Shown piece by piece: positions 1 through 38,407 of a DNA stretch of 38,407 bases. Position 1 is the stretch's first letter; each line of letters begins with the position of its first letter. Both the position numbers and the translations under genes were made by a program. The DNA comes from a virus (Duplodnaviria; Caudoviricetes). A model generated the notes under the pieces. It was not told the origin of the DNA. It did not search any database and saw only the letters and a list, made by a program, of their open reading frames with translations. The stretch is from positions 1-38,407 of the IMG/VR virus record IMGVR_UViG_3300033129_000175, one strand, 5' to 3'.

Positions 1-445
1 GGTGCTCAAGATTGAACCCACGATTGAGTACATGGAACAATTGCCCGAAGGCTCGACGCTGTACGTTGGCTTGCGTGCCGATGAAGAAGCTCGCCGTGGG
101 CTGTACGGCGAAGACATCGCCATTCGATTTCCAATGCGTGAGTGGGGATGGAAAGAAGCCGATGTGTGGGCATACCTTGACCAACGCGGCGTCAGCATTC
201 CTGTTCGCACCGATTGCGCTTGGTGCCCCTACCAGCGCCTTGGTGAATGGCGCGATCTGTACAACAAGTACCCCGTGATCTGGGCGCAAGGCGTGGCTCT
301 GGAAAAACAAATTGGCGCTACGTTTCGCAGTCCTGGCCGTGATGCGTGGCCTGCCGATCTGGAATCACTTGGCCAAGAGTTTGCCAGCGGCCGCAAACTG
401 CGCGAGTACAAGCGCAACACAACCTGCCGAGTGTGCTCACTATGA
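1..445 (+). CDS. PAPS/APS-reductase family (PP-loop) protein, C-terminal part; continues from 38151 across the junction (233 aa total)
   Basis: Terminal 'cg' plus first 'g' gives CGG, reading RWCTRVLKIEP. Also YVGLRADE..RR, FPMREW, RTDCAWCPY and terminal CRVC, typical of PAPS-reductase-like proteins. Confidence 0.85.
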   Translation, partial: VLKIEPTIEYMEQLPEGSTLYVGLRADEEARRGLYGEDIAIRFPMREWGWKEADVWAYLDQRGVSIPVRTDCAWCPYQRLGEWRDLYNKYPVIWAQGVALEKQIGATFRSPGRDAWPADLESLGQEFASGRKLREYKRNTTCRVCSL

Positions 446-31100: not shown

Positions 31101-31330
31101 AGGTTCACCTGCTTCAGTGCTGCTTGCAGACCGGCCAAACCGCCGACACGTTGACCGTCGATGAAGATCTGGGGCATCTGGCGCAGTTCAGGGTAAGTGG
31201 AGGAGAACACCTCAAACTCTTCGGGGTCGCCCATGTCGCGCTCCTCGTAGCTGAGGTGCTTGCTTTGCATGAGTTGCTTGGCGTGGTCGCAGTTGGGGCA
31301 GTTGCTCTTGGTGTAGATGACGATGTTCAC
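31097..31330 (-). CDS. Glutaredoxin
   Basis: GTG start after ggag; IYTKSNCPNC, MPQIFIDG..VGG. Confidence 0.9.
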   Translation of the reverse strand: MNIVIYTKSNCPNCDHAKQLMQSKHLSYEERDMGDPEEFEVFSSTYPELRQMPQIFIDGQRVGGLAGLQAALKQVNL

Positions 31331-31671
31331 AGTGTGGCTCCTCTCCGGTTTGATGGTGCGCAAGGCCATGTCTGTTTGAGCGCGTACAGGATGATGGTGT
31401 CTCCGGTGTTGTTGCGGGTGGCAGGGGCGCTGGCAACGTGTTGACGCACGACATCAATCACTTGACGCAGGGACACCGTCTTGGGGATGCAGTGGTTTAC
31501 ACCATTGCCCGTGTCAGACACGCCAGAGATGTAGCCGTAGAGCATTCCAAAGTCCAGCGTGTTGTCGTTGGCGGCATAACCGTCAGCCCACTTCTGGATG
31601 TCGTTGCCGGTAAAGTATTCAGCGTGTGCTGTGCCGCACAACAGCGCGGCGATCACAATCAGGTGTTTCAT
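31327..31671 (-). CDS. Secreted Rap1a/Tai4-like immunity-family protein
   Basis: Signal peptide MKHLIVIAALLCGTAHA; TGND, GYISGVSD, CIP..V...Q...VV, ALKQTWPC. Confidence 0.7.
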   Translation of the reverse strand: MKHLIVIAALLCGTAHAEYFTGNDIQKWADGYAANDNTLDFGMLYGYISGVSDTGNGVNHCIPKTVSLRQVIDVVRQHVASAPATRNNTGDTIILYALKQTWPCAPSNRRGATL

Positions 31672-31787
31672 TTGATGTCTTTCAAAAAGGTGAAGATGTT
31701 TGCGCTGCATCTGGCGCACCGGTATAGGTAATGTGTTGGGTGGCGATATGCGTAGTTGATTTCTTCCCAGCGGTGTTTGCAGGTCAT
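31668..31787 (-). CDS. 39-aa Zn-ribbon-like peptide (MTCKHRW...RCARC)
   Basis: Own translation; ATGA-coupled at both ends. Confidence 0.65.
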   Translation of the reverse strand: MTCKHRWEEINYAYRHPTHYLYRCARCSANIFTFLKDIK

Positions 31788-32179
31788 GTGTTCTTCTCCT
31801 TGAGTTTGGCTTCGATGGCAAAAGCCAAAGTAACGGGAATTTCTCTAAGCTCAACGGTAAGTTTTTCAATCTCCTCATCCGTCAGCCCAACCCATGTGCG
31901 CTGTGCTGGTGGGGCGGTATAGAGGTCTTTACCAAGCATTGACCAGTCCCCATCAATTCGGGGAACAAAAACATGGCCTTCATATGGGTCTGACTCTAAG
32001 CGTCCGACAGGCTCCTGCTGTGCTGGCTGCTCTGCCAGTGCTTCGCGGATAACGGTAATGACTTCTGGACACCAGACAGTAATTGCCTCAACTGTTCCAT
32101 CGTTGTGGTCTGTGCAACCGCCTTGCAGTTGCTCCAACGCCTCCAGCGCCAGCTTCAGTGCTTCTGTTTGTTTGCTCAT
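31784..32179 (-). CDS. Modular hypothetical protein (EALKLALEALE / EQPAQQEPV / WVGLTDEEI)
   Basis: ATGA-coupled start at 32179; shares modules with its neighbours. Confidence 0.75.
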   Translation of the reverse strand: MSKQTEALKLALEALEQLQGGCTDHNDGTVEAITVWCPEVITVIREALAEQPAQQEPVGRLESDPYEGHVFVPRIDGDWSMLGKDLYTAPPAQRTWVGLTDEEIEKLTVELREIPVTLAFAIEAKLKEKNT

Positions 32180-37398: not shown

Positions 37399-38031
37399 AT
37401 GCAATTGACTACCTTCTCCTCGGCAAATCTGCCAGCTGTCTCCACCTTGTCTACCGCTCTGCGTGCTTTGGAAAAAGACGTCGGTCCTGCGGGCACTGTC
37501 ATCCTGAAAATGGACAAGACAGGCCACTGGGTCTTCGGCGCTGACCAGACCGAAGTCGAAGACGACGCCACTTGGGCGATCAACCCTTACTCTTTCGTGC
37601 ATGGCTTTATTGCCTGGGGCGACGGCGAAGTGTTGGGTGAAAAGATGGCATCCGTGACGCAACCCTTGCCTGAACTTGACGCAGCACCTGCTGGCGCCAA
37701 GCGCGGCTGGGAGATGCAAATCGGCATGGCTTTGAAGTGCCGCAACGGCGAAGACAAGGACATGGAAGCCCGCTTCACCACGACCTCGGTCGGCGGTAAG
37801 AAGGCCGTGCAAGCCCTTGGCATCGCCATCGCCACGCAAGTGGACAAAGACCCTAGCAAGCCTGTGCCAGTGGTGCGCCTGAAGAAGGACCACTACACCC
37901 ACAAGTCCTATGGCCGCATCTACACCCCCGTGTTCGAGATCCTTGAGTGGGTGGGCATGGACGGTGCAGAAGCTGAAGAAGTAGCGGCAGAAGAGCCAGC
38001 ACCTGCTGGTCGCCGCCGCCGCGCAGCCTAA
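37399..38031 (+). CDS. Putative single-stranded DNA-binding protein
   Basis: Position between the DUF2800 nuclease and polymerase; beta-rich with aromatic residues (HKSYGRIYTPVF) and an acidic tail. Confidence 0.6.
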   Translation: MQLTTFSSANLPAVSTLSTALRALEKDVGPAGTVILKMDKTGHWVFGADQTEVEDDATWAINPYSFVHGFIAWGDGEVLGEKMASVTQPLPELDAAPAGAKRGWEMQIGMALKCRNGEDKDMEARFTTTSVGGKKAVQALGIAIATQVDKDPSKPVPVVRLKKDHYTHKSYGRIYTPVFEILEWVGMDGAEAEEVAAEEPAPAGRRRRAA

Positions 38032-38039
38032 GTAAAAAT

Positions 38040-38130
38040 CGGGGGCTGTCAAGCCAGCGTTCGAGGATGGTGACTTGCGGATTTTCTGGCTTTCTCCCGC
38101 AACTTGTCGAAACCCAAATCGAAGCCCCCG
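38040..38130 (+). ncRNA. Candidate structured RNA with pseudoknot (unassigned)
   Basis: Nested stems 38040-47/38123-30, 38061-64/38119-22, 38072-74/38106-08, 38075-80/38097-102, and a 7-bp pseudoknot 38051-57/38086-92. Confidence 0.6.
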
Positions 38131-38150
38131 CCTATAAAGTAAAGTACAGT

Positions 38151-38407
38151 ATGAAACACATTGTTGGATTGAGCGGTGGCAAGGATTCCACCGCACTGGC
38201 GTTGCGATTGGCTGAAGTTGAGCCACGCGATTACGAGTACATCTGTAACGAAACGGGTAACGAATTGCCCGAAATGCTCGACCACTGGAAACGCTTGGAA
38301 GACATGCTGGGCAAACCCATCATCCGAGTGCGGTACGACAAAGACCTTGAAGGCACCATCCAGCAGATGAAGATGCTGCCTAGCGTGTTTGCTCGCTGGT
38401 GCACGCG
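38151..38407 (+). CDS. PAPS/APS-reductase family protein, N-terminal part (continues at position 1)
   Basis: Own translation MKHIVGLSGGKDSTALAL...NETGNELPEM...FARWCT; PP-loop SGGKDS; missed by the ORF track. Confidence 0.88.
   Translation, partial: MKHIVGLSGGKDSTALALRLAEVEPRDYEYICNETGNELPEMLDHWKRLEDMLGKPIIRVRYDKDLEGTIQQMKMLPSVFARWCT

What the first reader, a model, noticed from the sequence alone, without database searches (positions are those of the whole stretch)
38040..38130. Compact pseudoknotted RNA-like element 20 nt upstream of the PAPS-reductase/polymerase unit
Seen: most of this 91-nt stretch is self-complementary. There is an 8-bp closing stem cgggggct/agcccccg, a stacked tcga/tcga, then gac/gtc and ttgcgg/ccgcaa. 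The terminal loop (ctggctt, 38086-92) is perfectly complementary to a 5' bulge (aagccag, 38051-57). There is no U-tail, so it is not a simple terminator, and the downstream ATG has no clear Shine-Dalgarno. Inference: a cis-regulatory RNA (riboswitch-like or protein-bound operator), a self-cleaving ribozyme, or a small RNA. I cannot match it to a family I know.
Basis: partly seen in the sequence, partly recalled or inferred. Interest (0 to 1): 0.78.

Follow-up and report, generated by a model that had tools for sequence, protein, structure and literature searches.

The report
Phage copy of bacterial stress RNA
This knotted 91-base phage RNA is real and is a short, distant form of the Agrobacterium small RNAs At1 and Ti2; it is not tied to the gene behind it and likely works on its own, probably by binding a host protein or machine that is still unidentified.

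Summary
The fold is real. The stems and the 7-bp pseudoknot covary: 94% of cells paired in 62 phage copies, and 116 of 120 hits to a structure-free pattern have complementary knot strands. About 1,600 viral stretches are estimated to match.

The cis-regulator reading fails. The PAPS-reductase-like gene is an accessory insertion. A relative keeps that gene with only a plain hairpin in the same stem, and the slot holds other RNA cassettes in most relatives.

The element is a shortened subtype of Rfam Atu_At1 (15 bits, cut-off 60). The family also includes the VirG-induced RNA Ti2 (80.5 bits). At1 and Ti2 are published intact 113-115-nt RNAs, which argues against self-cleavage. In rhizobia, 21 of 28 copies have a general-stress (EcfG-type) promoter motif, and 11 of 21 with an identifiable next gene face it head-on, so they are stand-alone genes. 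The Rfam model lacks the pseudoknot.

Best reading: a stable trans-acting RNA, likely trimmed to its closing stem, whose knot probably binds a host factor. The partner is unknown; Ro60 and Ku were not supported. New variant of a known, functionless family. Interest 0.5.

The parts
38040..38130 (+). At1/Ti2-family structured RNA, short phage subtype (no P5 hairpin); single copy in the window
38040..38047 (+). P1 closing stem, 5' strand (pairs 38123-38130); also the generic stem of the cassette slot
   Evidence: 8 of 8 pairs change on both sides; same stem closes other cassettes
38048..38058 (+). Conserved GYYAR-N5-C strand; pseudoknot 5' strand at 38051-38057
38061..38066 (+). P2 5' strand (pairs 38119-38122) and GG (pairs CC 38114-38115); AAA bulge 38116-38118 on the 3' side
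38067..38069 (+). AUG bulge: conserved in the short phage subtype, variable in rhizobial copies; in frame with the next gene here only by chance
   Evidence: 17 of 18 phage members keep GGAUG in place when it is left free; 6 of 28 rhizobial copies; 143 of 195 frames stop inside the RNA
38070..38080 (+). P3b (38070-71/38112-13), weak P3c (38072-74/38106-08) and P4 5' strand (38075-80/38097-102)
38081..38096 (+). Apical loop: UUUU (38082-85), pseudoknot 3' strand (38086-92), UC (38093-94)
38123..38133 (+). P1 3' strand and GCC(U) tail; RCC tail is a possible RNase P handle (inference)
   Evidence: RCC after P1 in 48 of 188 phage copies, background 2.2%; copies are not independent
38131..38153 (+). 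A/U-rich translation start region shared by several cassette types and several downstream genes; lies outside the RNA
37399..38031 (+). Upstream gene, SSB-like by position (between DUF2800 nuclease and PolA) and acidic tail only; no Pfam hit, PHROG 9528 labelled nucleotidyltransferase
38151..38407 (+). PAPS-reductase-like gene, 5' part; continues at window 1-445 (circular record) and overlaps the PolA start at 441; accessory, not a partner

Best explanation
The element is a short phage form of the At1/Ti2 family of pseudoknotted small RNAs, likely released from the replication-gene transcript as a stable unit closed by its outer stem and probably acting in trans by binding a host protein or RNA-handling machine through its knot. 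Shown here: the fold; homology to At1 and Ti2; independence from neighbouring genes; exchange with other RNA cassettes in one stem-bounded slot; a general-stress promoter motif before most rhizobial copies. Shown in print for At1 and Ti2 only: discrete RNAs whose ends bracket P1, induced in late growth or minimal medium (At1) or by VirA/VirG (Ti2). Inferred: the phage copy is cut out by host nucleases in the A/U-rich flanks and trimmed to P1, possibly with RNase P using the RCC tail; the U-rich loop strand packs on the knot helix; the knot is a shape-recognised surface that titrates a host factor (an RNase or a ribosome-associated factor are my lead candidates), so the phage borrows a host stress RNA as an auxiliary gene. 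My odds: real At1-family RNA 0.95; acts in trans 0.8; does so as a protein- or complex-binding RNA 0.5. The partner is not identified.
For: Homology: full-length Atu_At1 match. An architecture-only pattern pulls At1-type RNAs from rhizobial and sphingomonad genomes, with 5/5 complementary knot strands in 52 of 120 hits. The iterated model R2 scores At1 40.9 bits and Ti2 34.4 bits, against at most 16.6 for six decoy loci (4 of its 21 training rows were rhizobial). Another phage copy reaches 35 bits with RF02496. Long and short forms both occur in viral contigs. Trans: of 28 model-collected rhizobial loci, 21 have GGAAC-N16/17-NNTT directly upstream (consensus in PMC7083833 and PMC3892343); in the pattern-collected set 30 of 46 have GGAAC there against 75 of 5663 control windows. 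The next Pfam-validated gene is convergent in 11, same-strand in 10 and unidentified in 7. Phage copy L454 has its own sigma70-like promoter and a convergent neighbour; L452 abuts tRNA-Asn. Slot census of 75 usable relatives: this RNA alone 6, with a second cassette 2, other cassettes 17, plain hairpin 2, another hairpin class 28, none recognised 20; the closest relative (96% identical upstream protein) has a different cassette. Not base-pairing: the knot strands change freely with compensation; At1 and Ti2 coordinates were not found in the Hfq-enrichment tables of PMC4201532.
Against: No partner, no phenotype: deleting Ti2 did not change tumour formation (PMC3384568). Many copies are 5' leaders: At1 lies 51 nt before ligD, Ti2 93 nt before atu6155-virK, and PMC3738593 reads Ti2 as part of a 5' UTR. 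Both a Shinella and a Zwartia copy precede a PNPOx-like stress gene. In phages the next ORF is on the same strand in 100 of 116 cases, 40 of them within 40 nt. The phage model alone finds rhizobial copies only weakly (4 above E=1, best 23 bits). RCC is missing in 140 of 188 phage copies. Expression of the phage copy as a discrete RNA was not shown. The family is patchy (22 of 61 rhizobial-family genomes; 3 real copies in 301 genomes of the Zwartia family), unlike a housekeeping RNA.
Confidence: 0.5

Rival explanations
1. A cis-acting nuclease barrier: the knot and closing stem protect the 5' end of the downstream mRNA or the 3' end of the upstream one, and the 113-nt RNAs are stable leftovers.
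For: At1 and Ti2 head transcripts and pile up far above the downstream mRNA. Most phage copies are co-oriented with their neighbours. A plain hairpin can fill the same slot.
Against: 11 of 21 rhizobial copies with an identifiable next gene have their own promoter motif region and face a convergent gene. If a plain hairpin suffices in the slot, the conserved knot needs another reason.
Confidence: 0.2
2. A small-molecule or ion-binding RNA (riboswitch-like aptamer, or a free ligand sponge).
For: A pseudoknot with a conserved U-rich strand and a compact conserved core is aptamer-like (general knowledge). Several downstream genes are stress genes.
Against: No common downstream function, no expression platform, convergent and end-of-transcript copies. 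No link to the PAPS-like gene. No riboswitch family in Rfam at E<=10.
Confidence: 0.12
3. A ribozyme, self-cleaving or ligand-activated, that punctuates phage transcripts.
For: Position-independent, pseudoknotted, between phage genes and next to tRNAs, as known ribozymes are (recalled).
Against: At1 runs at 115 nt and Ti2 at 113 nt on denaturing northerns, the whole P1-to-P1 length. No ribozyme family match. The GGAUG core is not invariant family-wide.
Confidence: 0.08
4. An ordinary base-pairing small RNA that targets host mRNAs.
For: Own stress-promoter motif and discrete size, like other EcfG-dependent small RNAs.
Against: The loop sequence is locked in a covarying knot with 28 different 5' strands among 182 phage copies. 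Not found among Hfq-enriched RNAs (searched by coordinates only).
Confidence: 0.07
5. A cis operator or riboswitch specific to the PAPS-reductase/polymerase unit.
For: It lies 20 nt before the ATG; polymerase genes form two of the larger downstream clusters (10 and 7 of 116 copies).
Against: The start region lies outside P1 and is shared by other cassettes. The same genes work behind a plain hairpin. Only 8 of 75 relatives carry this RNA in the slot.
Confidence: 0.03

Closest known systems
Rfam RF02496 Atu_At1 (At1 = pAT_55271R of Agrobacterium fabrum C58 pAt)
   Same: Same order of parts: P1, GYYAR-N5-C, P2, GG/CC between two 3-nt bulges, P4, UUUU-N5'-UUUC loop; same 7-bp knot.
   Different: About 91 instead of 108-115 nt; lacks the P5 hairpin (a few phage copies have another hairpin there); scores 15.3 bits against a cut-off of 60; no GGAAC promoter motif (3 of 195 phage copies). 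The Rfam consensus has no pseudoknot and draws a small hairpin over the knot's 5' strand.
Ti2, the VirA/VirG-induced 113-nt RNA of pTiC58 (PMC3384568)
   Same: Scores 80.5 bits with RF02496 and has the same knot, so it is a second family member in the same strain; discrete, abundant, no deletion phenotype reported.
   Different: Driven by a vir box, not a stress promoter; long subtype; heads the atu6155-virK transcript.
C4 RNA of phages P1/P7 and CI RNA of P4 (recalled, not from a call)
   Same: Small phage RNAs cut from longer transcripts as stem-closed units by RNase P and acting in trans.
   Different: Those are antisense RNAs with known target sites; here the loop is locked in a knot, no target is evident, and there is no Rfam match.
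Type III antitoxin RNAs such as ToxI and phage pseudo-ToxI decoys (recalled)
   Same: Pseudoknotted RNAs that bind a protein; phages carry copies as decoys.
   Different: No repeats and no recurring toxin gene among the neighbours scanned.
Stress-linked orphan structured RNAs (raiA motif, OLE, ROOL, GOLLD; recalled apart from search listings)
   Same: Conserved, knotted, trans-acting, often phage- or tRNA-associated, function open.
   Different: Much smaller; no sequence or model match.

Membership tests
Atu_At1 (RF02496) | Score at or above the gathering cut-off of 60 bits | tested here: not met
   15.3 bits, E 7.4, model 1-108; best other phage copy tested 35 bits
Atu_At1 (RF02496) | Conserved GYYAR-N5-C and UUUU-N5'-YUUC motifs at the same spacing, with P1, P2 and P4 | tested here: met
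Atu_At1 (RF02496) | P5 hairpin with AACGAA loop 3' of P4 | tested here: not met
   segment after the loop is 16-18 nt in most phage copies and 29-30 nt in rhizobial ones
Atu_At1 (RF02496) | Reciprocal detection by a model built mainly from phage copies | tested here: met
   R2: At1 E 2e-8, Ti2 E 1e-6, decoys at most 16.6 bits; the phage-only R1 gave only weak hits
Atu_At1 (RF02496) | Expressed as a discrete RNA closed by P1 | tested here: inconclusive
   only contigs were available; they hold the element but cannot show ends or level
EcfG general-stress regulon small RNA | GGAAC-N16-CGTT-type promoter directly upstream | tested here: not met
   absent in the window and in 192 of 195 phage copies; present in 21 of 28 rhizobial copies
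Riboswitch | Consistent 5' position before functionally related genes, with an expression platform | tested here: not met
Riboswitch | Ligand-dependent structural change | not testable with these tools
   needs probing
Known self-cleaving ribozymes | Match to a catalogued ribozyme model | tested here: not met
Known self-cleaving ribozymes | Site-specific self-cleavage | not testable with these tools
   full-length northern bands of homologues argue against it
Y RNA / Ro60 system | Ro60 (TROVE) gene in genomes that carry the RNA | tested here: not met
   0 of 22 At1-positive genomes; 2 of 61 overall
Type III toxin-antitoxin RNA | Repeats next to a cognate toxin gene | tested here: not met
   single copy; no recurring toxin among scanned neighbours

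The most novel reading that the evidence does not exclude
At1/Ti2 RNAs are an unrecognised class of knot-folded effector RNAs that bind a core host machine (the RNA degradosome or the ribosome) whenever a cell runs a massive expression programme: general stress, virulence induction or phage infection. Freshwater phages carry them as auxiliary RNA genes in a mix-and-match toolkit of stem-closed cassettes that RNase P releases like tRNAs.
Probability: 0.2. Interest if true: 0.8.

Novelty: new variant of a known kind. Interest (0 to 1): 0.5.

Why it matters
At1 and Ti2 have been orphan small RNAs since 2012; Ti2 is the most abundant Ti-plasmid transcript under virulence induction. This work gives them a corrected, covariation-backed fold with a pseudoknot missing from Rfam. 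It puts Ti2 in the At1 family, ties most rhizobial copies to a general-stress promoter motif, and shows that an estimated 1,600 viral stretches carry a minimal form below the Rfam cut-off. The minimal phage form and natural compensatory variants make the function directly testable by pull-down and structure. If a host machine is the target, phages would be using a borrowed host stress RNA as an auxiliary gene. As it stands the family is known and its job remains open, which caps the score.

Tried and rejected
Rfam at cut-off over the window and 20 related loci: nothing. BLASTN against cultured phages: only short chance matches. The upstream protein has one close relative among cultured-phage records, from a freshwater spring, so the host stays unknown; Betaproteobacteria is only a guess from phage-type copies in Zwartia and Polaromonas bins. 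A first structure string was out of register except for the knot and was replaced. The joint MAFFT alignment A3 misplaced the rhizobial 3' half and was not used for counts. The first anchored parse undercounted P2 through an off-by-one anchor and was redone. 'GGAUG is invariant' was an artefact of my patterns for rhizobial copies but holds in the short phage subtype. AUG as a leader start codon: rejected. Ro60 as partner: rejected. Ku as obligatory partner: not supported, 17 of 22 against 23 of 39, p 0.17. A tRNA next to most copies: only 1 of 60 loci scanned. Upstream C-R-C-C cassette ends: 35 of 192 against a 10% background, weak. Sequencing runs: 14 runs with shares of 0.05-0.16; 7 different runs were laid, all contigs. 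In X9 and X11, contigs cover the element with 2-3 differences but run on beyond it; no ends, strand or level can be read, so there is no expression claim. Literature: searches gave no paper on the function, the pseudoknot, phage copies or At1-Ti2 homology. The largest supplements of PMC10690425 (10,006 viral candidate RNAs) could not be searched (files 1 and 2), so the phage subtype may be listed there.

Full report
Setting. The window is a circularly permuted 38.4-kb phage genome with P22-like portal and coat, PolA and a DUF2800 nuclease. The element lies between a 210-aa gene (SSB-like by position only) and a PAPS-reductase-like gene that runs over the join into PolA. Its relatives are uncultured viral contigs; the host is unknown.

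Observation. Folding energy alone is unremarkable (z -1.15). Three pattern scans of viral contigs collected homologues (each stopped at about 120 rows; estimated totals 460, 260 and 1,600 stretches). In an alignment of 62 of the first 109 distinct copies, 94.3% of cells pair and 23 of 32 pairs change on both sides; the knot is 99.8% paired. Related sequences can beat the shuffle control without structure, so the stronger tests left the knot bases free. 116 of 120 viral hits had 5/5 complementary strands, and 36 of 41 distinct strand combinations paired fully against 3.8 in shuffles (226 of 273 parsed sequences were kept by a P4 filter). P2 and P3b also covary. The fold is an irregular helix whose apical loop bends back to pair with the strand between P1 and P2.

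Family. Rfam gives no hit at cut-off but a weak full-length match to Atu_At1 (15.3 bits). Reading At1 itself shows the same parts, including a knot that the Rfam consensus does not draw. A pattern made only of shared motifs found 120 hits in bacterial genomes, 52 with a perfect knot; these are mostly Rhizobium, Ensifer, Shinella, Devosia, Mesorhizobium and sphingomonads, plus a few phage-type copies in freshwater bins. The phage-only model finds rhizobial copies weakly. After one iteration with 4 rhizobial rows among 21, At1 scores 40.9 bits and Ti2 34.4 bits against at most 16.6 for decoys. Ti2, the VirA/VirG-induced RNA of pTiC58, scores 80.5 bits with RF02496, so it is a family member; I did not see this stated in the passages read. 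The window's copy is a short subtype without the P5 hairpin; long forms also occur in viral contigs. It fails the Rfam cut-off, so I file it as a divergent variant. GGAUG is kept in 17 of 18 phage members when left free but in only 6 of 28 rhizobial copies; the family-wide core is the knot module.

What is in print. PMC3384568 (passages): At1 113-115 nt and strongest at high density; Ti2 113 nt, the most abundant Ti transcript under induction, sharing its promoter with atu6155-virK, deletion without effect on tumours. PMC3738593 (passages): At1 confirmed by RACE (118 nt; about 140 on northern), up in stationary phase and minimal medium; Ti2 may be a 5' UTR. The mapped ends bracket P1. PMC4201532 (passages and coordinate searches of 7 supplementary files): At1 and Ti2 coordinates not found among Hfq-enriched RNAs, a weak negative. 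PMC7083833 and PMC3892343 (passages): EcfG promoter consensus. PMC6180224 (passages): nothing on this RNA. PMC10690425 (abstract, appendix, 7 supplementary files searched, 2 unreadable). No paper on function, knot or phage copies turned up in searches.

Cis or trans. In 80 relatives found by the upstream protein (5 too short to judge), the slot before the polymerase holds this RNA in 8, other stem-closed cassettes in 17, a plain hairpin in 2, another hairpin class in 28 and nothing recognised in 20 (the classes are my own motif definitions). The closest relative has a different cassette. None of the 8 has the PAPS-like gene next. A contig of run X13 has the same two flanking genes with the 81-nt core replaced by a 16-nt hairpin top. 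The start region lies outside P1 and is shared across cassettes. Across 116 of 197 distinct phage copies with enough flank, neighbours fall into 101 clusters, among them exonuclease, terminase, two polymerase families and endolysin. Copies also end arrays of other small folded RNAs. In a model-based sample, 22 of 61 rhizobial-family genomes carry 1-4 copies. Of 28 of the 29 loci fetched, 21 have the stress-promoter motif, 23 of 27 parsed have a 7/7 knot, and the next validated gene is convergent in 11, co-oriented in 10 and unidentified in 7. Against this reading: several copies head stress genes (ligD, exonuclease III-like, DUF892, PNPOx-like), and 100 of 116 phage copies are co-oriented with the next ORF.

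Mechanism. A stand-alone, stem-closed, apparently Hfq-independent RNA whose conserved bases form a knot rather than a free seed most likely works by shape. I therefore infer that it binds and titrates a host protein or complex, and that the phage uses it as an auxiliary RNA gene riding in a generic hairpin slot. Release by host nucleases is inferred from the mapped ends of At1 and Ti2; RNase P is a possibility because RCC follows P1 in 48 of 188 copies (background 2.2%, copies not independent; the role of RCC is recalled knowledge). A U-A-U triple helix between the UUUU strand and the knot is a guess from topology, untested. Ro60 and Ku are not supported as partners. Rivals: nuclease barrier 0.2, ligand binder 0.12, ribozyme 0.08, base-pairing RNA 0.07, PAPS/polymerase operator 0.03.

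Earlier scan notes reached the same family in four other phages; they are unchecked AI notes and not independent support. They do mean the phage-At1 link is not new to this scan. Added here: Ti2 membership, the cassette exchange, the convergent-gene count and the size of the short subtype.

Verdict. Observation confirmed; interpretation partly supported; new variant of a known family with no known function; interest 0.5.

Noticed in passing
L001:3640-3745, L003, L015:3640-3745, L049:3619-3655, L042, L056, L076, L077, L080 (after the upstream gene's stop): A second cassette class (my type B): a stem, a loop-E-like GAAA/GAGUA motif and GCGGAUGC, with a very variable top; 14 of 75 slots, also in arrays after an exonuclease gene. 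No Rfam hit at cut-off in the loci scanned.
   Followed up: partly
L004:3638-3692, L057; L017:3312-3412, L020, L059: Two further stem-closed cassettes in the same slot (types C and D); folds z -2.4 and -3.1; no Rfam hit at cut-off for L004, L017, L059.
   Followed up: partly
L013, L016, L018, L021-L023, L025-L027 and others, just before the polymerase start: A hairpin class with tandem U-G pairs that covers the ribosome-binding site of the next gene; 28 of 75 slots; possibly a translational brake or RNase III site.
   Followed up: no
L441, L444, L447, L450, L457, L478, L479, L480, L486, L501, L509 (upstream of the element): Arrays of small stem-closed RNAs with recurring CUUCAC loops and C-rich (UCCCC) loops, many ending in ACC; candidates for anti-Shine-Dalgarno or decoy RNAs.
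   Followed up: partly
L454:2614-2688 (- strand), L473: A short ORF that looks like the PQQ precursor peptide PqqA (label recalled, not from a call) just upstream of a stand-alone copy with its own sigma70-like promoter; hints at methylotroph hosts.
   Followed up: partly
L450:4695-4820: A Betaproteobacteria-1 RNA (RF02932, 94.6 bits) in a phage contig that also carries the element.
   Followed up: no
L558:3671-3784 and many Ti plasmids (H58-H79): The Ti2 copy is widespread on Agrobacterium plasmids of Ti size and has swapped the stress promoter for a vir box.
   Followed up: partly
G343:C1 (L567-L570): One genome with four diverged copies, one before a MucR/Ros regulator gene.
   Followed up: partly
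L562, L561, L564, L563: Phage-type short copies in betaproteobacterial bins outside obvious prophages; L562 lies between a HipA-like gene and a PNPOx-like stress gene.
   Followed up: partly
window 31327-31878 (-): An ORF with a Rap1a immunity-protein domain in a phage genome (E 1.8e-14).
   Followed up: no
window 38151-38407 and 1-445: The record is circularly permuted inside the PAPS-reductase-like gene; the true PolA start is probably the ATG at 441, not the GTG at 346.
   Followed up: yes
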